64,000 bases of DNA from Eledone cirrhosa. Taxonomy: Eukaryota. The position numbers and the translations under genes are program-made. Location of the stretch: NCBI GenBank assembly GCA_964016885.1, contig OZ024742.1, positions 245,334,001 through 245,398,000 on the forward strand, written 5' to 3'. Under the pieces are notes generated by a model. It had not been told where the DNA came from. It saw only the letters and a program-made list of their open reading frames with translations, and searched no databases. Positions 12,060 to 54,832 of the stretch are shown piece by piece (positions within the stretch are counted from its first letter, which is position 1; every line of letters begins with the position of its first letter).

Positions 12060-12360
12060 CCCATGGGTACAAGCTGAAGCATATAGACAATATGCCCCCA
12101 CACCCCCCACTGCAAGGTGGTCGTGGAGGTGCCACGGCAAAAAAGCACCCAGCCCACACTATAAAGTGGACGTGTAGGCGCCACGAAAAAGCATCCAGCA
12201 CTCACTGTAAATGAGGTTGGTGTTAGGAAGGGCATCCAGCTGTAGAAATCAAGCCAAATCAGTTCCTGTATGAGCAAGGCATGGTCAGCCGACCAGACAC
12301 TGCCTACAACAGGACAACCCGTCTAACCCATGCTAGCGTGGAAGAACGGACGTAAAACGG

Positions 12361-12393
<33 letters not shown>
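12057..12393 (+). mobile_element. RTE 3' UTR copy (5'-truncated) with (GAT)n tail
   Basis: Near-identical reverse complement of 13805-14140. Confidence 0.9.
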
Positions 12394-13804: not shown

Positions 13805-16800
13805 TCATCATCATCATCATCATCATCATCACCGTTTTACGTCCGTTCTTCCATGCTAGCATGGGTTAGACGGGTTGTCCTGTTGTGGGCAGTGTCTGGT
13901 CGGCTGACCATGCCTTGCTCATACAGGAACTGATTTTGGCTTGATTTCTACAGCTGGATGCCCTTCCTAACACCAACCTCATTTACAGTGAGTGCTGGGT
14001 GCTTTTTTTCCGTGGCACGTACACGTCCACTTTACAGTGTGTGGGCTGGGTGCTTTTTTGCTGTGGCACCTCCACGACCACTTTGCAGTGGGAGGGTGTG
14101 GGAGCATATTGTCTATATGCTTCAGCTTGTACCCATGGGGGGTCAGGTCTTCTGTATTACTGCGCGCCGCCAGAGGTCATGGTCGTGTGTCATCGTCTTT
14201 GAGAGGTGTAATTGGGTAAGGTCGGCTTTTATCACCTCATCCCAGGTCTTCTTGGGTCTCCCCACTCCGCGGTTTCCATTGACTTCTAGTGCTCTGCACC
14301 TTTTTATGCAGCTGTCATCCTTCATACGCATCACATGTCCTTACCAACGTAACTGCCTCTCCTGCACACAGCATTTGATTCCTCTTATGCTCAGTCTCTC
14401 TGTCAATTCATTTATGCTTTGCCGTTCGCGTATATTACTATTACACATCCATCGGAGCATGCAGGCTTCGTTTCTTTCTAATCTATGTAAGTCTTCCACC
14501 TTCAGTGCCCAGGTCTCACTACCATGTAACATTGCTATTCGTATACACGCATCATACAGTCTGCCTTTCATTTTGAGGGAAAAGCCTTTTGCAGCTAGCA
14601 GTGGCAGTAGTTCCCTGAACTTCTTCTATCCCATTCTTACCCTAGTTATTGTACTTTCTGAACACCCACCTCCGCTGCTAATTCGGTCACCTAGGTAGCA
14701 GAAACTGTCTACTGTTTCTACAGAGCCCTCCCAGAGATTGGTGGTACTTGTTTCCTGTGGCTGTTTGCTGCTTGCTGTCCCAGCACAGCTGCTACATGTG
14801 AAGCTTACATTCTTAATTAAGCTTCCTGAGATCCCACTACATCTCTTGTGTACCCATTGTTTGCATTTGGGGCAGAGAATGGAGTTCCTACCTACACCTT
14901 TCCTACATACTGAGCAAGGCCATTTCCTTGAGGGGATATGGGTTCGGTTTTCAAGTCTACTTACAAGGACCGTAGTCTTTGTCAGGTTGACTTTGAGACC
15001 CTTTCTTTCTAGTCCCTGCTTCCAAGTTTGGAATTTCTTCTCTAGTTCTACTATAGATTCAGCTATAAGTGCGAGGTCATCTGCATACAGGAGTTCCCAT
15101 GGGCATCCGGTCTTAAACTCCTCCGTTATTGCCTGCAGGACTATGATGAACAGGAGAGGGCTAAGAACAGAGCCCTGGTGGACACCAACCTGTACGCTAA
15201 ATTCCTCGATATACTCATTGCTAATCCTAACTTTGCTGACTGCTCCCCTATACATGGCTTGTACAGCTTTCACAAGCCATTCATCTACTCCTAGTTTTCT
15301 AAGAGCCCATCAGATAATAGCACATGGAACTCTGTCAAAGGCTTTCTTGAGATCAACGAATGCCAGGTAGAGTGGCTTACTTTTAGCTAGGTACTTTTCC
15401 TGTAACTGCCTCACAAGGAAGAGGACATCAGTGGTGCCTCTTCCTGGTACAAACCCAAATTGCATCTCATCTAGTTTCACCCGGTCCCTAATCAACTGTG
15501 CTATAACTCTTTCTGTTACTTTCATGACCTGGTCCATCAGCTTTATACCTCTATAGTTTCCTCTATCTAGTGCATCACCTTTACCTTTGTAACAGTTGAC
15601 AATGATGCTACTGCACCAACCTTTTGGTATGACACCTTCTAGTATTACCTGGTTAACAATACGTGTGGTTATAGTGTGACCTACAGACCCAGATGCCTTC
15701 AGCATCTCGGCAGCTATACCCGATGGACCAGTTGCCTTCCCCATCTTCATATCTTTGATTGCCTTACTTACTACACTGCTGCTGACTTGTACTGCTGGCC
15801 CCTCTATAGGGTCTACTTGGGGTAGGGTCTCTTCTTCCCATGCATTCTCCTCATTTAGTAATCTATCATAATGGCTCTTCCATGCATCTTTCTTCTCAGC
15901 ACTTGTGAGAGCAAGTTCACCTTTATCATTCCGGATACACTTCTCTCCAATGACATCACAATTCTCTCTGACACACTGCCTCACAATCTTGAACACCTTC
16001 TGTTTCTGGTCCTCACGTTGCAAAACATGCTTGAATTTTCTATCCTCTGCTTCCCTCCTAGCTAAGTATACTTGTCGCCTAGCTTCCCTCTTGGTCTCTA
16101 TGTAATGTACCCAGCTTCCCCCGTTCTTCCATTCTTTCCATGCCTGTCTCTTGGCCTTAACTGCCTCCTCTACCTTATTGTTCCACCACCAAGTCACTCT
16201 CCTCCAGCCACAGATCTCATCCGTCGCCTCTAGTAAGTTATTTTTTAGGAACTCCCAGTGCTCTTCTACATTCTACATTGAATGTCTCTATCTGTTCTTC
16301 TTTACTGTCGTAGGCGTTGAGTAAAATATCTTTAAATCTGTTACTGGCTGAGGGGTCTTTCAGCTTCCAGATCTTTCTTCTCCAGATGTTGGCCTCTGTT
16401 TCCAGGTTCATTTAGTTCTGACCGTGAGGTCACTGACAACTAAGCTATGTTGGGAGGTACATTCCTCACTAGGGAAGGCTTTTGTGTTTACGACCGTCCA
16501 TCTGTCACGTCCTCTGATGAGGATAAAATCTATCTGACTAGAATGCTCCCCTGATCTATAGGTGATCAGGTGGTTGTCGGGTTTTTTGAAGTTTGTGTTA
16601 CATATCGACATGTCATTGGCGTTGCAGAATTCTAGAAGTCTGAATCCTTCTTCATTTCTTGTGCCAACTCCATGGCCTCCATGGACTCTATTGAAGCCGT
16701 CACAGTGTTTACCTACGTGTCTGTTAAAATCACCTGCAATGATTAGGAAGTCATTGTCGTTTGTTAGAGCAGTAGTGTGCATTAGGGACTCATAAAACCT

Positions 16801-18265
16801 ATCCTTAAGTTCGTCTGACAACCCCGATTGGGGTGCTTAAGCTGATATTATTGTGGTAATTGTTTTATTCAGGACTAGTCTGAGTTTAATGATTCTTGCA
16901 TTTACCCTGTTCACTGAGATTACTTTATCTACCCACTTGTCAGCTAGTAGAATACCTACACCACCCATCCCATCGTCATTTCCCACCCAGAAAAATTTGT
17001 AGCACTGACTTTTTCCTACAAGGACTCTAGCAGACTCTCCTCTCCATCTAGTCTCTTGCATACAGCATACATTAATTTACTTTCGCTCTAGCATCTCTAC
17101 GATTTCTCCTGTTCTTCCTTTCATTGTGCTTACATTGATGGTACCAACTCGGAGTTTTGGGCATTTGTCAACATTCGTGAGGAAGGGTCGATTTTTGCAG
17201 GGGTGTGTGTGTGCTTCCTGTCTCTGAATTGAAACTTCACATGGGTGCTTGGTAGCTCGCGGATTCATATTCATTTTCATTTATTAATTCAGGGTTGCTC
17301 CATTTATTTTCAGCTCATCCATACATAATGGTAGGAAAATTCAAGGCTAGAAGAACAGTGGTGGTGGTGGTAATAATGGCAGAGTATGTTGGGCTGGGAC
17401 GGGTGAGGAGAGAGGTAGGTAGTAGTAGAAATGGCAGGGTTTGTTGGGGTTGGTAGTGGGTGAGGGGGGCATGCTGAGGTTTGATTGGTCGAATAGGCTA
17501 TGGTGGTGGAAGGGAAATTGTGAGGTAGGTAGCCAAATCATGGCCTGTAGCATCTCATGGCAAAATAAACCGATAGGAGTAGATGACTTTGAAGAGAAAG
17601 CGAACTGATAAATAAAACAACACTAATAATAGTGTAAGAGAGAGGAGGCGAGTATATGACTTCGTAGAGAGGCAGCATGGTAGAGAAAATGAGGGTAAAA
17701 ATAAATGTGTTGTGGAAGCTAGTGAAGTGATAAATACAGCAATAATTGTGTGAGCAGAACATTTGCAATTGGGGAATAGAAGGATACCTGAAAGATTGTA
17801 TGGATGGATGGCTGGAACGTGGTTAAGCAGCTCTAGTGATTCATTTTAGCCTTTCAGAGTCAAGTGTGTCTTATCTCTTCAAGAACTTCAAGATGAGTGA
17901 GGAAGGAATGGGTGAGAGGGAAAGGGAGGTAATAGGTGGCTTAGAGATAGATAGAGAGAGGGTAGCCCTCATAGAGAGATAGAGAGATAGATAGGGGGTA
18001 GCCATCATTGAGAGAGAGAGGGGGGAGAGTCGCCATCATGGCAAAATAAACCGATAGGAGTAAATACAACAACACTAATAATAGTGTAAGAGAGAGGAAG
18101 AGAGTAGATGACTTCGTAGGTAGCCAAATCATGGCCTGTAACATCTCATGGCAAAATAAACCGATAAGAGTAGATGACTTTGAAGAGAAAGCGAAGTAAT
18201 AAATAAAACAACACTAATAATAGTGTAAGAGAGAGGAGGCGAGTATATGACTTCGTAGAGAGGCA
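13805..18265 (-). mobile_element. RTE-clade LINE, near full length, disrupted
   Basis: Single long ORF in pieces (17280-14143), ~330-bp 3' UTR and (GAT)n tail at 13805-13830; 5' boundary uncertain beyond ~17300. Confidence 0.9.
14143..17280 (-). pseudogene. RTE ORF: APE endonuclease + reverse transcriptase + PHD-like finger (stops and frameshifts)
   Basis: EN motifs VGTINV, MQETRW, AGDFN, SQIDFIL, SQH; RT motifs NYRGIKL, QFGF, FVDLKKAFD, GVHQGSVLSPLLF, LLYADD; C-terminal RQLRW and GRPKKTW. Confidence 0.93.
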
Positions 18266-19255: not shown

Positions 19256-19719
19256 AAGGGTTTTATTTCTTTTGATGGAAAACAGTGACCATACTGCAGA
19301 ATCGATTTCATAAAATGGTACTGTATGATCGTTAAATGTAGAAGGATGATGAAATTGTAAATTAGACAAAAGTATTAGAACAGAGGGAAATAACTCACCG
19401 AAAGCGATAGTTTTGGGGCCCCATGGACCATATTTTTCAAGTTAGAGAGTTGAAACCTTGTCTATTTGCTTCCTTGGCACTTTTTACATAGGTGTGTAAA
19501 TGTTCATGTCAGTCCGACCACGTCTACTACCATTTAACTGTGCACAACTGAATTTCAACCACCGCCCATTTCACAAATATATATTAGATAGATATATATA
19601 TATCATCATCATCATCATCATCATTTTATGTCCGCTTTTCCCTGCTTAGAAATAACAACACAATCGGTACAGTATATGGAAGGTATATATTAGGTTAACG
19701 CTTGATATAGCAGGAAGAG

Positions 19720-19772
<53 letters not shown>

Positions 19773-19776
<4 letters not shown>

Positions 19777-20066
19777 TCATCATCATCACAGTTTTACGTC
19801 CGTTCTTCCACGCTAGCATGGGTAAGACGGGTTGTCCTGTTGTGGGCAGTGTCTGGTCGGCTGACCATGCCTTGCTCATACAGGAACTGATTTGGCTTGA
19901 TTTCTACAGCTGGATGCCCTTCCTAACACCAACCTCATTTACAGTGAGTGCTCGGTGCTTTTTCCGTGGCGCCTACACGTCCACTTTACAGTGTGGGCTG
20001 GGTGCTTTTTTGCCGTGGCACCTCCACGACCACCTTGCAATGGGGGGTGTGGGGGCATATTGTCTA
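19773..20066 (-). mobile_element. RTE 3' UTR copy (5'-truncated)
   Basis: Near-identical to 13815-14115 and to the reverse complement of 12080-12370. Confidence 0.9.
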
Positions 20067-20134
20067 AAGTGTTAAGTATTTCCGTAGAAAAGCTAAAGGA
20101 AAGAAGAGTGCTCCATGTATAGTACAGAGCTATT

Positions 20135-20252
20135 TAATTATGTAATAAACAACACAATATAATTATTCCATTACCCAAGGTTTCACAAAGTTAGACGATT
20201 CTAACAGAAACGGTAATGGAATAATTATATTGTGTTGTTTATTACATAATTA
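20135..20252. repeat. perfect inverted repeat, 41-bp arms, 36-nt spacer
   Basis: TAATTATGTAATAAACAACACAATATAATTATTCCATTACC ... GGTAATGGAATAATTATATTGTGTTGTTTATTACATAATTA. Confidence 0.92.
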
Positions 20253-20486
20253 TATATATATTACAAAAGACCAGACTTCCCACAGGCACAGGTCATTGAA
20301 CCAAAGCATATAAATTGTATGCACCACCACCCCCAACCCAGCCCCCATACACCTCCCATGAGGATAGGCTGAAGTATACATCCAGTGAAGTCTCCAGCCC
20401 GCACTGTAAAGTGGTCGTGTAGGCGTCACAACAAAAAGCACCCACTGTAAATGAGGTTGACACTAGAAAGGGCATCCAGCTGTATG

Positions 20487-20533
<47 letters not shown>

Positions 20534-20560
20534 TTGAATTTTCAAATATATATATATATA

Positions 20561-20778
20561 TATACTTGAATTTTCAAATCTCAAATTTTAACTCTTCGTA
20601 TTATTAATTTTTCTTAATATTAATCAACATTTGAAAAGATGGCTTTTGCAGACCCATCGAAACCGGTCATTTTTTATACCCTTTATTATTTCCTTACCTT
20701 ATAAAATTATGTTTTTTCACAAAAAAGTATTCTGTCTCTTATATATTCCATGTGCCATTACCAACCTCAATTTTCTCT
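20561..20778 (+). repeat. 5' pseudo-LTR
   Basis: ~218-bp direct repeat of 25394-25611 with only about 2 differences seen. Confidence 0.95.
20626..20673 (+). ncRNA. minimal type I hammerhead motif, U3-A8 core variant
   Basis: TTGAAAA (20631-37), stem II GATGG/CCATC, GAAA (20659-62), palindromic ACCGGT, GUC cleavage triplet ending 20668; stem I weak (AACAT/ATTTT). Confidence 0.65.
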
Positions 20779-20842
20779 ATAACCTTCGTTTTGTGTAGAA
20801 AATTACACTTTTCATATATACTAACCTACACAAATCCGGAAA

Positions 20843-22108
20843 ATGGCACTGGAACAAGACAACACAACTTCAAACTCCAATATAAATGAGGAAATCCTGA
20901 AAATCCTAAAAGAGATAAATGGAAAACTCACAATTCTGACAAAAAAACAGGATATACCCCAAACCACCACACCGACTGACAACCAAATTTATTTAAACGT
21001 TCAAAACGTATGCAACTCCATCGAAAAACTTATGAATACCAACACAGAACAAACGACATTGCTCCATATCAAAAACCAAATGGGACACCTCTGGAAAAAA
21101 CATCTAAAAACCAGAAAATTCACTTTCTGGAATATGATAAAAAACCTCAACAAAGCTGGAATTTACCAAAAATGGATTAACTCAACACCGATAGTTTTAC
21201 CACGTAAATTCCAAATAAAGCATATTACAAACGAACCTGAACCAGAAAGAAAACTCCGTGAACAAATGTCACTCAACAGGATAAACATGGAAATAGAACT
21301 CCTAAAATTAAGGGCCACCTCAAACGAGCAAGAGTATAAGGATACTGATAAAAATATGGAGGAAGAATGCACTAAAAAGGCCGAGGGAACAACCCTACAA
21401 AATTTAATCAAATCGTGGAAACAGGACTGCGAGAATGCAGAAACTATTTCCCTTAAACAGTGGGAAAAATCCGAAAACTGGTTCCTCAAATATGAAGAAG
21501 ACTTTAAAAGGACGCACCAAACAGGTAACCCCTTTATAAAGCATTTGAACATAACAAGAACTACAACAGACACATTTACACCACCAAACCCAACACACAC
21601 TAACCACAGGCACATCCCCCACCAACACAAACCAAATACGGCCAACTACACCAAAAGAAACACACCCAACCACCACAACACAGGTTTCCGTAGAAATGCC
21701 CCCTACATAAACCAACGACGAAATAACATAGATCCAACTCACAACACACACACCACATTCCTCAGAAGAAATCCACCCAGACCACTTGAAATCACAACAG
21801 AACTTACCCACAACCACACCAGACATCACCCTCAATCCAACAAAAGACAACCCCCCAACCTCAACACTCTGTACCACAGAAATAACGCACCCAGACCACA
21901 TGAACCAACAACAGAACCCTTGCTCATCAACAACCACAACACATACCACCCCCACCATCACATTCACCCTCATGAAACAACAAGCTACAGACCCACACGC
22001 AACAGACCAACAAAATATAATCACACACAAAACTACATTCCTTTTTTAGGGAAAAGCCTGAAATACCAGGATACTCGATGGCCCCACCTCAGGAGAAACC
22101 AAAAATAA
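20843..22108 (+). CDS. Penelope-like element ORF1 (coiled-coil/helical N-half, His/Pro/Asn/Thr/Arg-rich disordered C-half)
   Basis: 421-aa open frame between the pLTR and the RT ORF; heptad-like INEEILKILKEINGKLTILTKK; overlaps ORF2. Confidence 0.8.
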   Translation: MALEQDNTTSNSNINEEILKILKEINGKLTILTKKQDIPQTTTPTDNQIYLNVQNVCNSIEKLMNTNTEQTTLLHIKNQMGHLWKKHLKTRKFTFWNMIKNLNKAGIYQKWINSTPIVLPRKFQIKHITNEPEPERKLREQMSLNRINMEIELLKLRATSNEQEYKDTDKNMEEECTKKAEGTTLQNLIKSWKQDCENAETISLKQWEKSENWFLKYEEDFKRTHQTGNPFIKHLNITRTTTDTFTPPNPTHTNHRHIPHQHKPNTANYTKRNTPNHHNTGFRRNAPYINQRRNNIDPTHNTHTTFLRRNPPRPLEITTELTHNHTRHHPQSNKRQPPNLNTLYHRNNAPRPHEPTTEPLLINNHNTYHPHHHIHPHETTSYRPTRNRPTKYNHTQNYIPFLGKSLKYQDTRWPHLRRNQK

Positions 22109-24354
22109 TCAACCTCTCAAAGACACCTCTAACCAACACACAAATCAACATTTTAAGTAAGGGCCTGAAATTTACACCTACACCACGTAAACCAAACTTC
22201 CCCGAAATGAAGGATGACATCATGGAATACTGCCGAAAGCTGCGACTAACGGAATTCTTCCACAACGACACCAACACTGAAGACGAATCACTGGTTAGAA
22301 ATAAAAGCAATTTCTGCCCACAAAAGGGAAGAAATAAAGCACTGGACACGTACTGCAAACACATCACCAACTTTCCCTATGAAAAAATTACAAATAAACA
22401 CACGAAATCAAACCTATCTACACACGAATGGGAAGAATTATTCACACTTAGAAACAACCCTGAGATAACCATCAAAGAAGCCGATAAAGGCAGTACTGTT
22501 GTCATTATGAATACGGACTACTATAGGACCATCGCACTTAACATTTTAGAAAACAACACATACTATGAAAAAACAGAAAACTACAAACACACCAAAACAA
22601 TGGGGAACCTTTTGACCTTACTGAATAAATACCGCAACAGCTTAACCACAAAAGAGTTTAACTATATAAGCCACTTCAAATGCAATACAAGCTCTTTTTA
22701 CGGCTTACCGAAACTTCACAAATGTAAACCCATAAACGATGCATGTGACACCTCAACCAACAATTACATTGAACTAACACCACCAGAAGACCTAAAACTC
22801 AGGCCAATTATAGCAGGCCCTACATGTGAAACCCACAGACTTAGCAACTTTCTGGACATCCTACTGAAACCCTTTCTACAACATATACAGAGCTACATAC
22901 GAGATGACCTTGACATGCTGAAACACCTCCCTAAAACAGTAAGTGCAAATACAATTCTTGTCTCCTTTGACATAATAAACCTCTACACAAACATACCCCA
23001 CAACTATGGAATAACAGCAGTCCAATACCGGCTTAACACACACCCATCAGAAATACCGACACGCATCAACACAGATTTTATCACTGACGGACTCCGCTTT
23101 ATCCTACAAAATAACTACTTCACATTCAATGGTCCAACATACAGACAAGTATCAGGTACGGCAATGGGCACGAAAGTAGCACCCACATATGCCAACCTAG
23201 TCATGGGATTCCATGAACAACAAATATATAGTCAGTCCCTTCTCTTATTTGGAGACTCTTTCCACACACACCTCAAAGCCAATTGGAAAAGATATCTAGA
23301 CGACTGCTTTATCCTATGGCAAGAAGACATGAACTCACTTACTACGTTTAAAAACATGATAAACAACATAGATAATAACATACAATTCACAATGGAATCC
23401 AATCCTAAGGAATTAGCCTTCTTGGATATTCTCATCTCTGTAATAGACGGGAAATTAGATACAGATATATTCTATAAACCCACAGATTCCAAGCAATACC
23501 TCTTTTTCACATCAAGTCACCCAAAACATACAAAACTTAACATTCCTTACAATTTGGCCAAACGTATATGTACCATAGTATCAGATCCACCTAAACGGGA
23601 GCAAAGACTAAAGGAACTAAAAGACACCCTTATCTTAAGAGCCTTTCCACTTGAAATAATCAACAATGGAATAGACAGGGCAAAACACCTAAATCCCCAT
23701 CAACTTAACAATCCAAAACAGAAAACCACACTCAACACCCTGCCATATGTATCCACTTTCAACCCCAGAAATACCGAAATGTTTGATCACCTACACAAAA
23801 ACCTCCCCATCCTACTTAAAGATGTAAAAATGAAGTCTATTCTTGAAACACACAAGATCCTTAAAAGTAAAAGACAACCCAAATCACTTAAACGCATTCT
23901 CACTGGACCAAATATACCCAAACCAATCCTCAACCCTACAGTTACCAAATGTGGTAGAACAAACTGTGGAACGTGCCTCTACCTCACTGAAGGACAAACA
24001 TTTACATTCAAAGATGGCCAAACATTTACAGTAAAAAACAATTTCACCTGCAACTCGGAGAACTTGATTTACGCAATAACTTGCGGTGGGTGCAAACACA
24101 ACTACATAGGACAGACGGGCACCTCATTACGCAAAAGAATGACCATCCACCGCCAACAAATCCGGGACGCTAACACAAGAAAAATCCCCTTGAGCAGCCA
24201 TATTGCGAACTGCGCAGGAATGACACTACCCAACTTTAAAATCTTCCTCTTCTACAAGTGCTCAGATTCGTTCACACAGCAACAAAGAATAAACAAAGAA
24301 AATCTATTCCTTAACAAATTTAAACCAAAACTAAACGGGTTATCACCCCAATAG
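22078..24354 (+). CDS. Penelope-like reverse transcriptase + GIY-YIG endonuclease
   Basis: LSKGLKFTPTP, EADKG, FYGLPKLHK, LRPII, SFDIINLYTNIP, GTAMGT, RYLDD, FLDI, YKPT; linker CGRTNCGTC; LIYAITC...YIGQT...R...H; no stops in 758 aa. Confidence 0.96.
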   Translation: MAPPQEKPKIINLSKTPLTNTQINILSKGLKFTPTPRKPNFPEMKDDIMEYCRKLRLTEFFHNDTNTEDESLVRNKSNFCPQKGRNKALDTYCKHITNFPYEKITNKHTKSNLSTHEWEELFTLRNNPEITIKEADKGSTVVIMNTDYYRTIALNILENNTYYEKTENYKHTKTMGNLLTLLNKYRNSLTTKEFNYISHFKCNTSSFYGLPKLHKCKPINDACDTSTNNYIELTPPEDLKLRPIIAGPTCETHRLSNFLDILLKPFLQHIQSYIRDDLDMLKHLPKTVSANTILVSFDIINLYTNIPHNYGITAVQYRLNTHPSEIPTRINTDFITDGLRFILQNNYFTFNGPTYRQVSGTAMGTKVAPTYANLVMGFHEQQIYSQSLLLFGDSFHTHLKANWKRYLDDCFILWQEDMNSLTTFKNMINNIDNNIQFTMESNPKELAFLDILISVIDGKLDTDIFYKPTDSKQYLFFTSSHPKHTKLNIPYNLAKRICTIVSDPPKREQRLKELKDTLILRAFPLEIINNGIDRAKHLNPHQLNNPKQKTTLNTLPYVSTFNPRNTEMFDHLHKNLPILLKDVKMKSILETHKILKSKRQPKSLKRILTGPNIPKPILNPTVTKCGRTNCGTCLYLTEGQTFTFKDGQTFTVKNNFTCNSENLIYAITCGGCKHNYIGQTGTSLRKRMTIHRQQIRDANTRKIPLSSHIANCAGMTLPNFKIFLFYKCSDSFTQQQRINKENLFLNKFKPKLNGLSPQ

Positions 24355-24635
24355 AATTGTCATAATATATAAACACACATACGCACGGAATCACTACTAT
24401 TAAAGACCAGAGACCAATTCTGTAGAATCAGGTTTATTCATTGACAGACCATGCCTTTGTGTGACCAACACATCCATGTTAAACCCTGCACGTGCACACA
24501 CATATATCTATATATATATGCGCACACAGAATTCACCACTGTCAGTTGCGGGGCCCAATCTACATGAAGAACTCAATGTGATCAGAATGACTTGTATTTT
24601 AATTTCACTGTCCCAACTTCTTATATTATGGAAAA

Positions 24636-24861
24636 AATATGTGTCTGTATGTATATATATATATATATATTTGGAGGCCATTTCTCTGTGTGTGGGTGTA
24701 TGTATGTGTATATGTGTGTGTGTGTATGTGTGTGCATGTGGATGTATGTATTGTGTGTGCGTGTGTGTGTGTGTGTGTATGTATGTGTGTATCTGGATGT
24801 ATGCGTATGTGTATATATATATATATGTGTGTGTGTGTATATATATGTGTGTGTATGTGTG

Positions 24862-24900
<39 letters not shown>

Positions 24901-24931
24901 GTGTATCTGGATGTATGTGTATGTATATATA

Positions 24932-24999
<68 letters not shown>

Positions 25000-25147
25000 T
25001 GTGTGTATGTGTATATATGTGTGTGTGTGTGTATGTGTGTATGTATATGTATGTGTGTGTGTATGTATGTGTGTATATATATATATATATATATGTATAT
25101 GTATATGTATGTATGTGTGGATGAAGGTATGTGTGTGTATATATAGG
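24636..25147. repeat. compound (TG)n/(TA)n/(TATG)n microsatellite inside the PLE 3' region
   Basis: Directly visible; includes a duplicated ~120-bp block with GTATCTGGATGTATG. Confidence 0.9.
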
Positions 25148-25393
25148 TGTAAGTGCACTAAATCCCTTTCTATCACGCTCCACTCTCCTACCCACCACAG
25201 GAAGATATGTGTATGTATATTGCTTCCACCCCCTCACTGACCAGCAGCTGGCCAGTTGGTGATTGCTAAATCTGACCTTTATAAAATAACCCACACCCCA
25301 AATAACTTCTCATTCACTACCAGAAAGGGACACAGCAGTCAACCTGTTGTTGCTACCTAGATGAAAACTGCTATGAAATCCCACAATGAACTT

Positions 25394-25606
25394 TATACTT
25401 GAATTTTCAAGTCTCAAATTTTAACTCTTCGTATTATTAATTTTTCTTAATATTAATCAACATTTGAAAAGATGGCTTTTGCAGACCCATCGAAACCGGT
25501 CATTTTTTATACCCTTTATTATTTCCTTACCTTATAAAATTATGTTTTTTCACAAAAAAGTATTCTGTCTCTTATATATTCCATGTGCCATTACCAACCT
25601 CATTTT

Positions 25607-25611
<5 letters not shown>
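25394..25611 (+). repeat. 3' pseudo-LTR
   Basis: Direct repeat of 20561-20778. Confidence 0.95.
25459..25506 (+). ncRNA. second copy of the U3-A8 hammerhead motif
   Basis: Identical to 20626-20673; predicted cleavage after 25501. Confidence 0.65.
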
Positions 25612-25643
<32 letters not shown>

Positions 25644-25757
25644 CAAAAGCATGTATTGAGTTAGAAACTCAAAATAGTCTCATTACAGTAAAATTAGCTC
25701 TTACGATTTGAACGCATACATGTATATGTCTGTGTTTGTTTTTCTTTTTTTCAGTTA

Positions 25758-25809
<52 letters not shown>

Positions 25810-26611
25810 TCTACTTTACTTAAGTATGGAGTACTAAGTTGAATAATGGTCTTGTTGGTCTTTATTAGTAACATCTTATATATTATCATCATCATAACCA
25901 TAATCATCATCACTGCCACCACCACCACCAACATTGTTTTACATCTATTTTCCATGCTTACATTGGTGTGTATATATGTGTTCAAATATATAAATTCCAT
26001 TTTAGATATTGAAACTCAAGTCAGATGTTGTGAACAAGAGCTAAGTGATAAGCCAATGAATACTAAAGGAAAACATCACGATATTTGTGTAGAGGAGGTT
26101 GCTCCCAAACAGATAAAGTGACTATTTATGTCTATTTGGCCATTGACTTAACTTCTTTAAAATAATACGACCATTCATATGACCCTCCACAATCTGATAC
26201 TGTCTCTTTCTCTCTCTCTTTCTTCCCTAGAGCGATGTCTCTCTCAGCAAGCGGGATGTAGTTGTTGCTACTCCTATAGTGCCACTCCTGCATTGCTTGC
26301 ATCTCTCCATTCCCAGCACCGTTCCACCTCTATTCTGTCAAGGACACAACAATTACAAATGTGTTAATGCTACACTGGAATGCACCCAGTACACTCAGGA
26401 AGTGGTAGTGCCAGTGTCACAATAAAATTCACTTAATCTACTCTGTAAAGTGGTAGTGCTGATGCCATGATAAAATGTACCTAATCCATTCTGGGAAATG
26501 GTAGTGCTGATGATGAAAGCATTGCCTCAGATATCTGTTGTATGAGCCATTACACCTCATGGGGAGTCCTTCCTCAAGTGTGATGCCCTCCTTCCAATTT
26601 GGCAGAGGAAA

Positions 26612-26776
26612 ATGGCAGTCCAGGGTCTGAGAGCAATGGAAATTTTGATGGCACCAGGCAGTCAGAGGACCAAAAACACTGGAAGTTTTGACGGCAACTA
26701 GCAATCTGAGGACTGAAAACAATGGATGTTTTGATGGCAGCAAGCAGTCTGAGGACTGAGAACAATGGTATTTTGT
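26612..26776. repeat. degenerate ~39-bp minisatellite, about 4 copies
   Basis: Unit like GCAGTCTGAGGACTGAAAACAATGGATGTTTTGATGGCA. Confidence 0.7.
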
Positions 26777-26809
26777 TATCTTTCGCTCAACTGTGCTATC
26801 TAAAGTCTA

Positions 26810-27075
26810 TCCCAAGCCTGGAGGCTCATCAGGCCAGTGATCCTGGTTCCCATGGTGTTAAGCAATTGATACAAGACTTCCCCCTGGACCAAACACGAGT
26901 CCATTGCGGGGTTAAACACCAGCTACTGCTGGTACTCATTTTCAGCTGAGTATACTGGATGAATGTGAAATAAAGTGTTTTGCTCAAGAACACAACGTAG
27001 CAGCCTGTCCAGGAATCGAACCCATGACATTATGATCATAGGTACAACCCACATACCACTTGGTCATGTGCCTCC
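26810..27075 (-). mobile_element. SINE family B
   Basis: GTGAAATAAAGTGTTTTGCTCAAGAACACAAC...GGAATCGAACC (reverse B box); homologous to 61535-61768. Confidence 0.75.
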
Positions 27076-29653: not shown

Positions 29654-29843
29654 ATAATTGTTTCTATTTTTGGCACAAGGCCAGCAATTACCCAGTACAT
29701 TACTGGTACTTTATTTTATCGACCCCGTAAGGATGAAAAACAAAGTTAACCCTGGCGGGATTTGAACTCAGATCATAAAGAGCCGTAACTCTATACTGCA
29801 AAGCATGGTGTCCGACTCACTACTGATACTGCCAATCTACCAT
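29654..29843 (-). mobile_element. SINE family A
   Basis: Reverse complement of 13059-13251. Confidence 0.85.
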
Positions 29844-34309: not shown

Positions 34310-34493
34310 ATAATTGTTTCTACTCTAGGCACAAGGCCAGTAATTACCCCAGTGTATTACTGGTACTTTATTTTATTGACCCCGTAAGGATGAAAGGCAA
34401 AGTTAACCACGGCGGGATTTGAACTCAGAACGTAAAGGGATGTAACTCTATACTCCAAAGCATGTTGTCTGACACTCTACCGATACTGCCAAT
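34310..34493 (-). mobile_element. SINE family A
   Basis: Reverse complement of 13059-13251. Confidence 0.85.
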
Positions 34494-37545: not shown

Positions 37546-38880
37546 GCAGTGTAGAGGGTTTTTATGGTTATGGGGTTAAGATCATAAGTTCAGATCTTAC
37601 AACGGCCAATTTATTGTGTTCCCAATCAAAGTACATGACTCTACTTTTTGCAGTTTCCTGACTTAACTTGCAGGCTCTGCTCTTCCTAACTGAGTGATTA
37701 GGAAGCAGTAAAATTAATAGTCCCAATAAACCATGTCAACCATGATGGAACAGAAAAAATGGATGGAAAAACAGTAAAAAAACAAACAAAAAACAAAAAC
37801 AATACCCAACTATCATCTACATAGGTGAGTGTTTTATTGACGTTTTCTGTTTATATCTGAGCTGATATTGTTTTGAATATGAAGCTTTTCAAGTGTATAC
37901 TCTTTACCTACTCACTAAAGCCTTGGATTTAAAGTTAACTGTGTTATTTGTCACTGCTTATCTGTATTACTTGTTGATGAAAATAAAATCATTGTCCTTG
38001 GAGAGCTTCTATATGATTGCTTGATCTGCTAAAAATAGCAACCAAACCTCTTTCAAATCATAACTTTCTGTCATCATCATTATCATTATATGCCTGCTTT
38101 TCCATGCTGGCATGAGTTGGATGAGTTGTTTGTTACAGACCAAACCAATACCTAATTGGAGGTATATTGTCCTCCTAGACAAATCAGTCGACTACAAACA
38201 GATATGTTTCATTTAGATATGGCTTCTACAGCTTGATACTCCTTCTAAGATGAATAGAGGATACTGGATGCATTTCATTGTGTCACCAACAATAGAGAAG
38301 CTGTTTTTGTTATGACAAAAAATAAAAAGGATAATGAAATGTAATTACTTAATAATAAGAAAAAATTGGCCAATTGCTACAAGTAGGTTAAATGGTAAAA
38401 CTATCAGAACTTTTTTCAGGTTTGTAGAGTGTTAACGAATATAGTTTGTTATTGCACCATCAATATTGATAAAAAAAAATGATAAAAAAAAGGAACAAAA
38501 AAACAAAGCAATTAGATAGAAACCTAATCCACTCTCCTCTAGACTACTTTTATCTTAACTATTTGATTACTATATTTCTAATGAAAGACACTGCCTATGA
38601 TTTTCAAAACATTTGAAAAATAATCCAGAATTTTCAGGGATTTAGAAATATAACTTTCTTATTATTAACGCTTTTGATATCAACCTGGCTCTCATTACGA
38701 AACAAAACCACCCATTTTAAAGGGTTCCTATATAAATTAAAATCTTCCAACATAATTTTAGCAAATGGTTTAAAATTCTATGTTGATTAATTAAAATAAG
38801 ACTGTGTTTCATTAGAAATATGGTCATGAAAGGATTAATTTGGTGTTTAGAACATAACTTAAAGATTCTTACATCAAATT

Positions 38881-39038
38881 ATAATTGTTTCTACTTTTGG
38901 CACAAGGCCAGCAATTATCCCACTGGTACTTTATTTTATCGACCCCATGAGGATGAACGGCAAAGTTAAATTCGGCAGGATTTGAACTCAGACTGCAAAG
39001 GGACGTAACTCTATGCTGCAAAGCATGGCGCCCGACCC
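38881..39038 (-). mobile_element. SINE family A
   Basis: Family consensus in reverse. Confidence 0.8.
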
Positions 39039-39084
39039 TAGGTTTTTAGATAAATATAAATACTTTAAAGTAAACAATTTTGTA

Positions 39085-41706
39085 ATAATGATAATGAAAA
39101 TTATTGTGTACAGTGCTCAGGTGCACTACAACTCATCAAAGGTGCATGCATAATACAAAGAATAATTGTTTCTACTTTAGGCACAAGGCCAGCAATTATC
39201 CAGTACATTACTGGTATTTTATTTTATCGACCCCGTAAGGATGAAAGGCAAAGTTAACCTTGGCGGATTTGAACTCAGAACGTAAAGGGACATAACTATG
39301 CTGGAAAGCATGGCGTCTGACCCTCCACCGCCCATAATACAAAGAATAATGTACAAAAGTCAGGAAAGTGAACAGTGTATGAATCATGATATACACAGAC
39401 ACACACATGAATTCATGTGTATGGAAGGGGAATATCAGGTGTAGTGTTGTTGAATTTCAGGAAACATGGAAATTTTGAAGGATGCAGTGTCTCAACATCT
39501 AACAACTGATGCAGGTACTTTGTTCCATGCTTCAGCAACTCTGAGCGTGAGAAAATGTTTCAGAAAGTCATGAGAGCTGTACTGTTTCCTGATTTTATAA
39601 GCATGTCCACAGGTGTTATCCATATGGAATTCAAAAAGGTACCCAGAGTTGTTGTTGGAAATATGGTTAATAATCTTGCCAGATGTCAGAGCTTTAATGT
39701 ATCTATGCCCAGGGAAGCAAGGCATTCAATGTGTGGTAGAAGCCTGGTGGAGGGTATTTGTTTGGTTGAACGTTTCTCAAACGTTTCCATGAGATCAATA
39801 TTCTGAGAAAGATAGAGGGTCCAGACTGGTGAGACAAATTGTAAGTGTGGACGTACCATAGCTATATACCACTATAAATAGATAGCTTGAGAGTGGCTGA
39901 CAAATGTTTTACTGAGTGATGCTATAAAACCCTCGGTCTTGTTGACAATTTTAGATATGTACTTTGTCCAACACAAATCACTGTTGACAATAATGCCTAG
40001 GTCACATTCACAAGAAGACTTCTTGAGATTGGTGTTGTGGAGGGAGTATGTGAAAGCTAGGTTTTTTCCTTTCAAAATGCATGGTAGACACTTGTCCACA
40101 ACCAGCTTGAATTGCCAGTCTGTAATCCATTGCTGAATTGTGTCCAGGTCTGATTGCAGGAAAGATCTATAGCATACAGAATCTGTCCTTTTTATCTCAA
40201 GGTACAGCTTAATGTTGTCTGATATTTCAGCACTGTGGCATCTTTCAAGTTGGCATCTATGTCATTAATATATGCAACAAACAAAAGGGGACAAAGAACA
40301 CATCCCTGTGGTACACCAAATGTCATCTCATAGGATGAAAAAGAACCGTGACTACCTCTTTTCGATTGAGAATATATAGTCTTGAGCTATAAGTCTTTTG
40401 TGTGGTACATAATTAAAAGTTTTAGCAAAGTCAAGATAAATAACATCCACACATAAGCCGCCATTAGTGATTCGGGTAATGTCTTCAGGAAACTCAATGA
40501 GCTGACCACAGCAGCTGGAGTTTGGGAAATCCAAATTGCGAGGGACAGATAAGGCTGTGAGAGTTCCAGAAGTTCCAGAGTGTTTCTCTGACACAGGACT
40601 CCATCAGTTCAGTGATGCAGCTAGTAAGACTGACTGGACAATAGTTGATAGGCGATGAGTGATCACCTTTTTTGAACAGAGGAATGACACTGGGAGTTTT
40701 CCACTACACTGGGGTATCACCATTTTTAAGGCAGAATTGGAAGAAGAGAGAAAGCTGGTGCAGAAGAAAGTACCCATCACGTTTGAGAAGCAGGTGTGTA
40801 ACACCATCAAGACCATAAGGGGCATAGTCGCGCTTATTCTTGAGGTGGTGTTGCAACATTGCAGGTGTAAATTCCATAGTTGGTATAGAACTTGATGTCA
40901 GAGGTGGTGGAGATAGTACATTTTGATTTTCAACAGTAAAAATACCTGCATAGTATTCAGCAATAAGTTCTGTGCATTCTCTGGGATTATCAGTACTCCA
41001 GCCTATGTAGGGATTGCGAAGAGGACCAACTCATCTGTGCTTTGAATGTACATATTTCCAGAATACTTTGCTGTCAGGGCTGGTTGTTATACGCTATTCA
41101 AATTCAAGCACTGCTATTTTTGCCACCTGCATCAGATGGTTAGACGATCTATTGCACTTTTTTCTATTAAACTCTGATCTATGTAGTCTGTATTCCCATT
41201 CAGCATCACAACGTTCTTTCCTGGCAAATCGGACTACTGCAGTCTCCCAAATTGCACTTTTGGGGTGTTTTTTGTGCTTACATGGTACTGATACTGCACA
41301 TGCTGTCTATATTGAGTTCAGGATGTCCTGAAGTATAGTGTTCACATCTCCAGAAACTTAAAAGCCAGTTTGGGTGTTGTAGCTCAGTGCTACAAGAATT
41401 CCAGTCTGCTTTATACTAGTCAAAGCAAGCAGTTTGGAGATGGTTGTAGTTTTTGTTACTGCCCATAAGAAACAGATTGGCAATAATCATAGCATGGTCA
41501 GAGTCACCTAAAGGTTCCTCAGTAGAGACACTGATAACCATTTCAGGAGTAGTAGTAAAGAGCAGATCCAAAGTGTTGTTACCTCTTGTAGAAGAGGTGA
41601 CTACTTGGGACCAATTTGAATCCAGCACTAGCTCAAGGAAATCATTTGCACTTTGCGGCCAACAAAAGGCTTCCCAACCAATCTCAGGTTAATTGAAGTT
41701 GCCTGC
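39085..41706 (-). mobile_element. CR1-type LINE, decayed 5'-truncated copy
   Basis: Fragments DVIYLDFAKTFNYVPHKRL, CECDLGIIVNSDL, NTLDLLFTT...LGDSDHAMI; colinear with 55845-58340. Confidence 0.9.
39164..39333 (-). mobile_element. SINE family A nested in the CR1 3' UTR
   Basis: TSD CATAATACAAAGAATAAT on both sides. Confidence 0.85.
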
Positions 41707-43057: not shown

Positions 43058-44165
43058 TATTGGGTTGGTCAAACAGTCTGTTCGGTTTTCTTAGTGAAAA
43101 TGAGAGACAGTTTTAAACCCAAAGTAATTTATTTAATCAATGATATATTTGCCATTTCGTTCCAGCACCTTCTGCCATCTTCTAGGTAGATCCATTATTT
43201 CATCTCTTTACTGGCGTTGAACCCTTCCAAATGCATTTTCATATCTTTTGAAGAATTGAAGTTCTGTCCATTCAAAGAATTTTGAAGAGACGGAAACAGG
43301 TGAAATCTGAAGGAGCAAGGTTGGGAAAATATGGAAAGTGAGGAAAAACTTCCCTGTCAAGCCCTAGAAACTTCTGCCACATCTCCAAAGAAGTGTGTGG
43401 TCTGGCATTGTCTTGATGAAAGACAATACTTTTTCAATTGGCAAATAATGGATGCTTCTGGTGGATTGCTGTGTTTAATTTATCCAGCTGTTCACAGTAC
43501 ATATCCGAATTGATGGTCTTGTTTGTGGGAAGAAACTTGTAAAAAACGACACCTTTTAAATCACACCAAATTGAAAGCATAATCTTCTTTGGGTGAAATC
43601 CTGCTTTGGAGGTTGTTTGAGGTGGTTCTTGGCACTTCTTCCATGATCATTTTTGCTTCATATTGTTAGAGACAATCCATTTTTTGTCATCAGTTACCAT
43701 TTTCTTCAAAATGGGATCATTTTCTTCAAGTTTAAACAAGAAATTGCAGATGGAAATCCATAGTGCAAAGTTGGGTTCATTCAATTCATGGGAAACATCA
43801 AGACTGCTGACATAACCAAGTATATACAGATGGTTTTCAACACTTGATTTGGATATCTGGAGAATATCTGTGATCTCCCTGGTTATAAGACAGGAGTTGG
43901 TGTTGACTAACTCCTTCACTTGGTCGCTGCTAACCACAGTTGGCCATTCAGAGCAATGTGCATCTTCAATTGAAAAATTTCCCGATTGAAATCTTGAATA
44001 CACATTCTGGCATACACATTCTATAACATCATCCTCTTTGTACATAACACATATGTTCCAGCAACTTTCTGATGCTTTCTTACCTTTTTTAAAATAAAAA
44101 AGCATGATGTGTTGATAATTTTCATTACCACATTTCTAATGAAATATAAGGCCTATGATTTTCAA
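43058..44165 (-). mobile_element. mariner (Tc1/mariner) transposon, decayed
   Basis: TA-TTGGGTTGGTCAAA terminal repeat at 43058; transposase remnants MLFYFKKGKKASES...RFQSGNFSIED..., MVTDDKKW (TGDEKW motif), PYFPNLAPSD (YSPDLAPSD motif) near 43305-43335. Confidence 0.88.
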
Positions 44166-45201: not shown

Positions 45202-45508
45202 ATAATTGTTTCTACTTTTGGCACAAGGCCAGCAATTATTCCAGTGTATTACTGGTACTTTATTTTATTGACCCCGTAAGGATGAAAGGCAAAGTTAACC
45301 TCAGCAGGATTAGAAATAATAATAATAATTGTTTCTACTTTTGGCACAAGGCCAGCAATTATCCAGTGCATTACTGGTACTTTATTTTATCGACCCCGTA
45401 AGGATGAAAGGCAAAGTTGACCTCGGCGGGGTTTGAACTCAGAATTGGAAAGGGCCGTAACTCTATGCATCTAAGCATGGTGTCCGACTCTCTACTGATA
45501 CTGCCAAT
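45202..45508 (-). mobile_element. two tandem SINE family A copies (one truncated)
   Basis: Family 3' end AATTGTTTCTACTTTTGGCACAAGGCC appears at 45204 and 45327, each next to (AAT)n. Confidence 0.8.
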
Positions 45509-46960
45509 GAAATTATTGTGTACAGTACTCAGGTGCACTACAACTCATCAAAGGTGTATGTATAATACAAAGAATAATGCACAAATGTCAGGGAAGTGAA
45601 CAGTGAATGAGTCATGGTATACATGTGTGCATGTGTATGGAGGGGGAGTATTAGGTGTAGTGTTGGCGAATCTCAGGAAGCATGGAGGTTTTAAAGGATG
45701 CAGATAACAATTGATGCAGGTAGTTTGTTCCATGCTTCAGCAACTTTGAGCGTGAAAAAATGTTTCCGAAAGTCATGGGAGCTGTGCTGTTTTCTGACTT
45801 TGTTGGCATGCCCACGTATGTTAGACACATGGAAATCAAAAAGGTACTCAGGGTTGTTGTTGGCAAGATGGTTAATAATTTTGTGGGTGTTTACCAAGTC
45901 AGTTGCCAAACGTCGGAGCTTCAATGTATCCATGCCCAGGGAAGCAAGGCATTCAGAGTACGGTAGATGCCTGATGGAGGGTATTCGCTTGGTTGCACGT
46001 CTCTGAACAGTTTCCAGGCGGTCAATGTTCTGAGCAAGATAGGGGTTCCAGACTGGTGATGTAAATTCTAAGTGTGACCGCACCATAGCTATATACAGCT
46101 TTAAATAGATAGCTGGAGAGCAGCTGACAAAGGTCTTGCTGAGTGATGCTAAGACACCCTCGGCCCTCTTGACAATTTTAGAGATGTGCTTCGTCCAATG
46201 CAAATCGCTGCTGACAGTAATGCCTAGGTCACATTCACAAGAAGACTTCTTGATTTTAGTGTTGTGGAGGGAGTATATGGACACTGGGTTTTTACTCCCA
46301 AAATGCATGGTGGTACACTTGTCCACAGCCAGCTTCAGTTGCCAGTCTGTAATCCATTGTTGAATTGTGTCCAGGTCTGATGGCAGGAAAGATTTATAAC
46401 ATACTGAATCTCTCCTTTTTATCTCAAGGCACAGCTTGATGTCATCTGCATATTTCAGTACTGTGGCATTCTTTAAGTTGGCATCTATGTCATTAATATA
46501 TGCCACAAACAAAAGGGGGCCAAGAACAGATCCCTGTGGTACACCAGATGACATCTTATATGGTGAGGAATGCTGTCCTAGAACCGTGACTACCTCTCTT
46601 CGACTGAGAATGAAGGACTTCAACAAGTTAAAAAGATCATCCTTCACACCCATTGCAGAGAGTTTTGCCATAAGTCTTTTGTGTGGCACAGAATTGAAAG
46701 CTTTAGCAAAGTCAAGGTAAACAACATCCACCCATGAGCCGCCATCAGTGATCCGGGTGATGTCTTCAAGAAACTCAATAAGTTGATCACAGCAGCCAGA
46801 GTTAGGGATAAATCCAAATTGCGAGGGCCGGATAATACTGTGAGAGTTCCAGAAGTTCCAAAGCGTTTCTCTGACACAGGATTCCATCAATTTGGCAATG
46901 CAGCTAGTAAGACTGACTGGACGATAGTTCACAGGTGATGTGCGGTCACCCTTTTTGAAC
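45506..46960 (-). mobile_element. CR1-type LINE, 5'-truncated, RT frame still open
   Basis: NYRPVSLTS, QFGF, VYLDFAKAFNSVPH, GVPQGSVLGPLLF, KYADD, DLGITV, LETVQRRATK; 3' UTR shared with other copies. Confidence 0.93.
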
Positions 46961-46964
46961 AATT

Positions 46965-47444
46965 CAGCTAACTGGAAGACATATAAAGTGAATAGAAGCA
47001 AAAATACGCACATATGCACACGAGGTCCAAAAAGAGGAGCCGAACTCCCACTGTCATCACCTGTCTTTCTCACCCTCCTCATCCCTCACTATTATGAGTA
47101 AATAGGGCACCTTGCCATGGCTGCCCCATGGCCCCGGTGGACAGAAGGGAGCAGGTGTTTCCCCAGAGGATGGTGCGGGAGATGCACTGGAAGAGCCATT
47201 CCATGTCGCGAGGCTCACACCTGCAGCTAGCCAGCTCAGCACCTATGGTGGTGAGTAAGGAGGTAGCCCAAGGGCCAAGGATACCAGAAGTCTCCACTGC
47301 TAGGGGCTCAACTGCAAACCTGTCGGAGAATGACTGATACTTTGAGAGTTTACTCTCCTCAGCCTGAAATGCAGCAGAGCCTGGGTTAGTCGCAAACTGC
47401 ACCAGGTTGCTGCTGGAGAATGTGGCGCTGCATATGGCATCCCA
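46965..47444 (-). mobile_element. CRE-like RLE fragment plus its 3' UTR
   Basis: WDAICSATFSSSNLVQFATNPGSAAFQAEESKLSKYQ...EPLAVETSG...WLFQCISRTILWGN; UTR homologous to 54590-54670. Confidence 0.8.
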
Positions 47445-47931: not shown

Positions 47932-48044
47932 GTTGAAAGTTAAACTTTCCTTACAAAATATTTTCTAGAAAACCAATCCAGAAATAATGACATGGAAAAC
48001 TTTATAAAATCTGTTAAAGATTTCTTCACTGTGGTGTTCAGTCA

Positions 48045-54775: not shown

Positions 54776-54815
<40 letters not shown>

Positions 54816-54832
54816 TAATAATAATAAAAATA

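What the first reader, a model, noticed from the sequence alone, without database searches (positions are those of the whole stretch)
20626..20673. Cryptic hammerhead ribozyme with a compensated U3-A8 core in both pseudo-LTRs
Seen: TTGAAAA-[GATGG...CCATC]-GAAA-CCGG-TC occurs identically at 20631-20668 and 25464-25501. The usual CUGANGA box is changed at exactly positions 3 and 8 (C to U, G to A). Known: C3-G8 is a tertiary Watson-Crick pair in hammerheads, so U3-A8 is a compensatory swap. Penelope pseudo-LTRs often carry minimal type I hammerheads whose palindromic stem III (here ACCGGT) supports dimeric cleavage. Inference: the two copies could pair and excise a unit-length ~4.83-kb RNA. A CTGANGA motif search would miss it. 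Stem I is weak, so activity is uncertain.
Basis: partly seen in the sequence, partly recalled or inferred. Interest (0 to 1): 0.75.

Follow-up and report, generated by a model that had tools for sequence, protein, structure and literature searches.

The report
Penelope hammerhead with fossil cut marks
Both ends of this Penelope-type jumping gene carry a small hammerhead RNA motif with an already published U-A swap in its core, and genomic copies of the element start unusually often right at its predicted cut site (once fused to U6 RNA), which likely records occasional self-cutting in the animal.

Summary
Observation confirmed. The 38-nt motif is identical at 20631-20668 and 25464-25501, in both pseudo-LTRs of a young Penelope-like element (RT, CX4CXXC linker, GIY-YIG); 2,143 family matches genome-wide, 0 control. 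About 20,500 U3-A8 motifs in several families keep the core while stems covary; mismatched 3-8 pairs number about 370.

It is not new. U3-A8 hammerheads in pseudo-LTRs were published for Schistosoma elements (PMC4209133), and this scan noted U3-A8 motifs and similar cut footprints on other DNA.

Added here: copy 5' ends pile up at the predicted cut (18 of 66 junctions within 10 nt, 5.6 expected). One full-length copy starts there, and one copy has the U6 snRNA 3' end fused exactly to it. So cleavage in vivo is likely but rare (roughly 4% of copies).

The proposed excision of a linear 4.83-kb RNA as template is not supported. Of 30 arms, 29 end 103-152 nt beyond the cut site with the motif intact, and none ends at it. 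The template is uncut or re-ligated RNA. Cleavage itself was not assayed.

The parts
20631..20668 (+). Minimal type I hammerhead motif, 5' copy: U3-U4-G5-A6-A7-A8-A9 (20631-37), stem II 20638-42/20654-58, G12-A13-A14-A15.1 (20659-62), palindromic stem III 20662-67, C17 = 20668; predicted cut 20668/20669
   Evidence: sequence; descriptor scan; cross-family alignment
25464..25501 (+). Identical hammerhead motif, 3' copy; predicted cut 25501/25502
20626..20673 (+). Weak stem I flanks (2 bp, C-U mismatch, 2 bp)
20561..20778 (+). 5' pseudo-LTR (5'-truncated repeat joined to a (TA)n run)
25394..25611 (+). 3' pseudo-LTR, followed by (CT)n(TA)n; 99.1% identical to the 5' copy
20669..20678 (+). Hot spot of 5' junctions of genomic family copies, with its edge at the predicted cut
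   Evidence: U6 fusion
20778..20820 (+). Two fixed 3' end points of family copies (about 20778 and 20820) with a 42-nt tail between them; inferred internal RT start sites
   Evidence: analogy to PMC11167929
20846..22108 (+). Upstream ORF (420 aa from ATG), no Pfam or NCBIfam hit
22021..24354 (+). RT-endonuclease ORF (777 aa stop to stop): DKG motif, RT with YLDD, CX4CXXC linker, C-terminal GIY-YIG
   Evidence: RVT_1 E 5e-7; GIY-YIG E 6e-7

Best explanation
This is the pseudo-LTR hammerhead motif of a young Penelope-like retrotransposon, with a U3-A8 core pair, and it likely works as a weak, dimer- or protein-assisted ribozyme that cuts only a small share of element RNAs after C20668. Shown: the motif, its place in both pseudo-LTRs, cross-family conservation of the core with covarying stems, two fixed copy 3' ends about 110 and 152 nt past the motif, and an excess of copy 5' ends at the predicted cut. 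Inferred: the element's RT starts internally downstream of the motif and copies leftwards. On most templates the motif is uncut or re-joined, so the RT reads through (intact motif, pseudo-LTRs). On a minority (about 4%) the RNA has a free 5' end at A20669, so the cDNA stops there. That gives 110-150-bp mini-copies, fold-back palindromes, an occasional full-length copy starting at the cut, and once a U6 fusion. The palindrome ACCGGU would supply stem III only between two motifs.
For: Core invariant and stems covarying across five motif groups in this genome (10 representatives). U3-A8 18,558 + 1,958 and C3-G8 10,094 matches, against 179 C3-A8 and 193 U3-G8. 5' junctions: 18 of 66 independent events in 20669-20678, 5.6 expected, binomial P 7e-6, best-window permutation P 4e-4, only 4 in the 10 nt upstream. 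Rate ratio 3.6 after modelling microhomology and AT content (P 1.4e-4), and 8 of 38 among non-fold-back events (P 0.014). 35 of 52 matches (31 loci) join foreign DNA exactly at A20669, against 1 of 8 and 10 of 16 at two control positions. U6 3' end (Rfam 65.1 bits, gathering 44) fused directly to A20669; RtcB joins U6 only to 5'-OH ends (PMC6789731 passages), the end a hammerhead leaves (established knowledge). Full-length copy L232 aligned from 20669 to 25611. A 9-nt insertion exactly at the cut in one two-armed copy. U3-A8 hammerheads are active in vitro (PMC3088659 passage). The anole element's hammerhead cuts only with protein, and its RT starts internally on unprocessed RNA (PMC11167929).
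Against: No cleavage assay and no RNA data were obtained. The active fold is disfavoured in calculation: monomer +6.2 versus MFE -9.0 kcal/mol; dimer with stems I-III -7.9 versus cofold MFE -24.1; stem II probability 0.2 in context. This family has the weakest stem I of those compared. A rival helix (GACC/GGUC, probability 0.34) also ends at 20668 and could stall RT there. A second junction cluster (12 of 66 at 20642-20651) is unexplained. The +13 control still has 10 junctions. The U6 fusion, the full-length copy and the 9-nt insertion are single events. The family counts are a handful of lineages, not thousands of independent tests, and a small repeated C3-A8 group exists. PMC11167929 found no RNA-seq reads ending at the cut site in the anole.
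Confidence: 0.68

Rival explanations
1. Circular-template model: both motifs cut efficiently, the 4,833-nt unit is ligated into a circle, and RT starts internally and crosses the re-formed motif. The junctions at the cut come from the unligated minority.
For: Fits read-through of an intact motif and 3' ends beyond it, and the 42-nt tail in 18 of 30 arms although the window's 3' pseudo-LTR lacks it. The U6 fusion suggests that a ligase can act on this end. Model proposed in PMC4209133.
Against: No circle seen; no RNA-level data. An uncut tandem or read-through transcript predicts the same copies. Low predicted activity. In vitro the anole element uses unprocessed RNA and does not need cleavage.
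Confidence: 0.17
2. Inactive or vestigial motif: hammerhead-derived but no longer cutting in this family. The 5' junction peak comes from RT stalling at the GC-rich helix that ends at 20668, plus AT-rich microhomology.
For: Weak stem I and a competing fold; fold-back microhomology of 5-7 nt at 20669-74; a second, unexplained cluster upstream.
Against: The enrichment survives adjustment for microhomology. A better 10-nt palindrome at 20614 draws fewer junctions. A stall explains the base-exact U6 fusion and the exact 9-nt insertion less well. The core is intact in about 2,100 young copies.
Confidence: 0.1
3. One reading: the two copies pair in cis across 4.83 kb and release a linear unit-length RNA that is the transposition template.
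For: Two identical motifs 4,833 nt apart; the stem III palindrome self-pairs at -8.3 kcal/mol; one full-length copy starts at the cut.
Against: 0 of 30 arms end at the cut; 29 end 103-152 nt beyond it. The full-length copy that starts at the cut still carries an intact 3' motif and its downstream 110 nt. Most family matches in the first 100 listed are solitary or inverted, not tandem.
Confidence: 0.05

Closest known systems
U3-A8 minimal hammerheads of Schistosoma mansoni Cercyon Penelope-like elements (Cervera and de la Pena 2014, PMC4209133; parts 1-2 of 4 of the text and parts 1-2 of 3 of the supplement read)
   Same: Type I minimal motif in both pseudo-LTRs, U3-A8 instead of C3-G8, G10.1-C11.1 pair, palindromic stem III; their S. 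mansoni (4) box reads UUGAAAA(A).
   Different: Here no extra nucleotide after A9, a 6-nt rather than 4-nt stem III palindrome, a shorter and broken stem I, another host group. That paper tested a different family (Sm1) in vitro and, in the parts read, gives no genomic evidence of cutting.
Hammerhead of the anole Poseidon element PAc (Frangieh et al. 2024, PMC11167929; parts 1-2 of 4 read)
   Same: Motif in the pseudo-LTR upstream of two internal RT start sites that define a tail; inserted copies carry an intact motif.
   Different: PAc has C3-G8, overlaps the start codon and belongs to the Penelope/Poseidon clade; no RNA ends at the cut site were found there, whereas here genomic 5' ends cluster at it.
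Neptune/Nematis Penelope-like elements (Craig et al. 2021, PMC8557442; passages and supplement hits read)
   Same: C-terminal GIY-YIG, CX2-5CxxC linker, DKG motif, (TA)n targets, inverted 5'-truncated arms, optional tail.
   Different: No tree was built, so Neptune versus Nematis is not resolved; the U3-A8 core is not mentioned in the passages seen.
U6/LINE-1 chimeric pseudogenes (Moldovan et al. 2019, PMC6789731; passages read)
   Same: 3' part of U6 ending in five T joined directly to a 5'-truncated retroelement.
   Different: There the LINE-1 junctions are scattered; here the single case falls exactly on a predicted ribozyme cut of a Penelope-like element.

Membership tests
Hammerhead ribozyme, minimal type I | Core U4 G5 A6, A9, G12 A13 A14, A15.1-U16.1, H17 | tested here: met
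   invariant in 10 of 10 aligned representatives
Hammerhead ribozyme, minimal type I | Watson-Crick pair between positions 3 and 8 | tested here: met
   U3-A8 here; genome-wide about 30,600 paired versus 372 mismatched matches with similar but not identical patterns
Hammerhead ribozyme, minimal type I | Stem II closed by G10.1-C11.1, with covariation | tested here: met
   GAUG/CAUC, GCAG/CUGC, GCAU/AUGC, GCUU/AAGC, GUUG/CAAC across groups
Hammerhead ribozyme, minimal type I | Palindromic stem III for dimer pairing | tested here: met
   ACCGGU here; ACAUGU and ACUAGU in other groups
Hammerhead ribozyme, minimal type I | Stem I of at least 2-3 bp | tested here: inconclusive
   2 bp, mismatch, 2 bp; a 2-bp stem I is reported for Drosophila virilis
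Hammerhead ribozyme, minimal type I | Match to an Rfam hammerhead model | tested here: not met
   no hit at E<=10; weak evidence, since such minimal variants were found with descriptors rather than these models
Hammerhead ribozyme, minimal type I | Site-specific self-cleavage after H17 | not testable with these tools
   only indirect genomic footprints
Penelope-like element, EN+ (Neptune/Nematis type) | RT with C-terminal GIY-YIG endonuclease | tested here: met
Penelope-like element, EN+ (Neptune/Nematis type) | CX2-5CxxC linker between RT and EN | tested here: met
   CGRTNCGTC in the translation; definition
Penelope-like element, EN+ (Neptune/Nematis type) | Pseudo-LTRs, inverted 5'-truncated arms, optional tail, (TA)n targets | tested here: met
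Penelope-like element, EN+ (Neptune/Nematis type) | RT phylogeny within Neptune or Nematis | not tested
   no tree built

The most novel reading that the evidence does not exclude
The genome holds a fossil record that an autonomous Penelope-like element's U3-A8 hammerhead cuts in the germ line and that its 5'-OH product is taken up by the host RtcB ligase (the U6 fusion). The same ligase would close the 4.83-kb unit into a circle, which is the true template for the read-through majority of copies.
Probability: 0.2. Interest if true: 0.72.

Novelty: new member of a known kind. Interest (0 to 1): 0.42.

Why it matters
The U3-A8 core in Penelope pseudo-LTR hammerheads is published, so the swap itself is ordinary. 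What these ribozymes do in vivo is still called unclear (PMC8557442), and the one mechanistic study read found no RNA ends at the cut site (PMC11167929). Mapping copy 5' ends is a cheap genomic read-out that suggests cutting happens and gives a rough rate. The base-exact U6 fusion points to 5'-OH chemistry and host ligase access. Both make the linear-versus-circular template question directly testable on a young family with near-intact copies.

Tried and rejected
Rfam scan of 19500-27000: only microsatellite-driven chance hits, no hammerhead. Single-strand folding: no excess stability and non-catalytic MFE folds. Search for a C3-G8 sister family with the same stem III: 1 match versus 2 control. 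Sequencing runs: no RNA holder listed; the contig runs laid cannot show starts or expression and are not used as evidence, though loose ends at 20668-20669, 20778 and 20820 were listed. A DNA search of the pseudo-LTR scored only 3 candidates, so patterns were used instead. The descriptor scan had a regular-expression fault (0 real hits) and was redone. Type III topology rejected by eye: no closed stem I upstream of U3. A spliced form using the acceptor-like end of loop II was considered, but the related family C lacks it; not pursued. Lunse et al. (PMC5785218) was not available; its dimer result is cited only through the review PMC6765202 (passages), and it may describe further U3-A8 cases. 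Literature searches listed no paper on U3-A8 hammerheads in cephalopods, on 5'-end clustering at Penelope hammerhead cut sites or on U6-Penelope fusions; most hits were seen only as listings, and subscription papers and bioRxiv supplements are not covered.

Full report
Observation. The motif is present as described at 20631-20668 and 25464-25501, 4,833 nt apart, inside a 218-bp direct repeat that is 99.1% identical. Read as a hammerhead it gives U3 U4 G5 A6 A7 A8 A9, a 5-bp stem II closed by G10.1-C11.1 with an 11-nt loop, G12 A13 A14, the palindrome ACCGGU as stem III, and C17, with the cut predicted between 20668 and 20669. Stem I is 2 bp, a mismatch, and 2 bp. A descriptor finds only these two sites in the window, against 0.005 per shuffled window in 200 shuffles. 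Rfam has no hammerhead hit and the strand folds no better than shuffles.

Element. [quoted passage not shown] With the (TA)n flanks, inverted arms and tail this is an EN+ Penelope-like element of Neptune/Nematis type as defined in PMC8557442 (passages); no tree was built. The family pattern has 2,143 matches in the 3.0-Gb genome and 0 in the reversed control. Thirty arms differ from the window by 0.8% over 105 nt, so the family is young. The host looks octopus-like; that is my impression and the wording of earlier scan notes, not a tested result.

Covariation. U3-A8 motifs ending in GAAACCGGT number 18,558 (control 17); with other stem III centres 1,958 (control 55). Canonical C3-G8 motifs number 10,094 (control 435), in the first 100 listed all of a 467-bp repeat type. 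Mismatched cores are rare: C3-A8 179 (control 35) and U3-G8 193 (control 62). The patterns differ slightly, and the copies belong to few lineages, so these are not independent trials; a small repeated C3-A8 group appears. In 10 representatives of five groups the invariant columns are exactly the hammerhead core, positions 3 and 8 switch together, position 7 varies, and stems II and III change in compensating ways. One U3-A8 group, a 316-bp tandem repeat, has a long predicted stem I. One copy of the largest U3-A8 group lies about 1 kb downstream of a GIY-YIG remnant 53% identical to the window's.

Where copies end. In 30 arms chosen on the motif up to GAAAC, 11 end at 20771-20781, 18 at 20815-20820, one runs on into the ORF, and none ends at the cut. 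This matches the two internal RT start sites and tail described for the anole element, where unprocessed RNA was the main template and the ribozyme cut only with protein (PMC11167929, parts 1-2 of 4). A linear RNA cut at both motifs cannot template these ends; the template is uncut at the 3' motif or re-ligated.

Where copies begin. First test: 52 matches have a base other than C before A20669. All 52 were read: 35 are junctions to foreign or inverted DNA (31 loci, four perfect palindromes counted on both strands), 14 point changes, 2 are the arms of one copy with a 9-nt insertion exactly at the cut, and 1 is an internal deletion that the script called a junction and I removed. Control positions gave 1 junction in 8 matches (40 nt upstream) and 10 in 16 (13 nt downstream). 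Second test: a pattern that catches junctions anywhere in 20610-20726 gave 422 matches. The first 100 listed were fetched and merged into 78 events, 12 intact and 66 junctions. Eighteen of 66 fall in 20669-20678 (5.6 expected; binomial P 7e-6; best-window permutation P 4e-4), against 4 in the 10 nt upstream. A Poisson model with microhomology, TA match, AT content and position leaves a rate ratio of 3.6 (P 1.4e-4); fold-back events give 10 of 28 and all others 8 of 38 (P 0.014). A second cluster, 12 of 66 at 20642-20651, is unexplained. Scaling the excess gives about 84 events against about 2,100 read-through arms, roughly 4%; this is a rough figure.

Single telling copies. In L141/L233 the 3' part of U6 snRNA (Rfam 65.1 bits, gathering 44; 1 hit in 15 loci scanned), ending in five T, is joined directly to A20669 of a 110-bp mini-copy inside one microsatellite. 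U6/LINE-1 fusions arise by RtcB ligation, which needs a 5'-OH acceptor (PMC6789731, passages); that hammerheads leave a 5'-OH is established knowledge. An RT template switch would also need an RNA end or stop at this base. L232 is a full-length copy aligned from 20669 to 25611 at 96.6%, with its 3' motif region included. It was the only one of the 52 matches seen to continue into the ORF.

Mechanism and limits. Most likely a weak ribozyme that needs a partner motif or the element's protein and cuts a minority of RNAs after C20668. Calculated energies disfavour the active fold (monomer +6.2 versus -9.0 kcal/mol; dimer -7.9 versus -24.1), and a rival helix ending at 20668 (probability 0.34) could stall RT. 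A circular template explains the copies equally well and cannot be told apart here. Cleavage, dimer formation and circles were not observed.

Known work. PMC4209133 (parts 1-2 of 4 and supplement parts 1-2 of 3) reports the U3-A8 variant from Cercyon elements with about 1,300 hits in S. mansoni, low dimeric activity for a different family, and the circle model. PMC3088659 (passages) reports natural U3-A8 covariation and earlier in vitro activity. PMC6765202 and PMC7229834 were read as passages; bioRxiv 10.64898/2026.07.22.740005 as part 1 of 5 and passages; PMC6962438 as passages. This scan had already noted U3-A8 Penelope hammerheads in this and other genomes, and cut-site footprints in another family; these are unchecked notes, and I saw the footprint note after my own tests.

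Verdict. Real motif, known kind, with useful indirect evidence of in vivo cutting. Novelty: new member of a known kind; interest 0.42.

Noticed in passing
window 22042-22090: The ORF1/ORF2 overlap has a T TTT TTA heptamer in the ORF1 frame, with ORF2 in the -1 frame and a short hairpin 8 nt downstream: a candidate programmed frameshift (a frameshift after ORF1 is noted for some PLEs in PMC8557442 Fig. 1 legend). A poly-C run at about 22081 and a (CA)n run at 22022 vary among 8 distinct copies, so the frame relation is not settled.
   Followed up: partly
L141 / L233 (G000:C26, about 18152449-18152580, minus strand): U6 snRNA 3' end fused to a Penelope mini-copy exactly at the predicted hammerhead cut.
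   Followed up: yes
L075 / L076 / L234 (G000:C1, about 98726077-98726489): Both arms of one inverted insertion carry the same G-rich 9-nt insertion exactly at the predicted cut; possibly a repaired or template-jumped junction.
   Followed up: partly
window 20642-20651: Second cluster of copy 5' junctions (12 of 66) in loop II, which ends in an acceptor-like pyrimidine-CAG; unexplained.
   Followed up: partly
L065-L070 (G000:C1:6518447-6523056): 316-bp tandem repeat with a U3-A8 hammerhead that has a long predicted stem I and 4-bp stem III; a better test subject for U3-A8 activity.
   Followed up: partly
L055-L064: 466-469-bp tandem repeats with a canonical C3-G8 hammerhead and 7-bp stem I, in inverted arrays.
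   Followed up: partly
L035-L042, L050, L051; L043-L049: Two further dispersed U3-A8 groups: a very abundant one with a 4-bp stem II, often as short inverted pairs, and an older one with a UUGAUAA box.
   Followed up: partly
L224 (G000:C2:369961634-369962348): Short direct and inverted units joining the start of ORF1 to pseudo-LTR position 20701; a possible non-autonomous derivative.
   Followed up: no
window 14626-16836 (-), 45691-47085 (-), 54617-55660 (+), 56046-58603 (-): Broken LINE-type elements: endonuclease and RT pieces, one with a C-terminal PHD finger; a zf-RVT piece.
   Followed up: no
window 43647-44135 (-): Mariner (Mos1-type HTH) transposase remnant.
   Followed up: no
window 47351-48055: 47-nt tandem array with a 99% identical core.
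   Followed up: no
window 12185-12376 and 19773-19964: 192-nt inverted repeat, 97% complementary, 7.4 kb apart.
   Followed up: no
window 29655-29803, 34312-34460, 38875-39311, 45204-45474, 62707-62855 and inverse copies: Dispersed short repeat family of about 150-190 nt on both strands, SINE-like.
   Followed up: no
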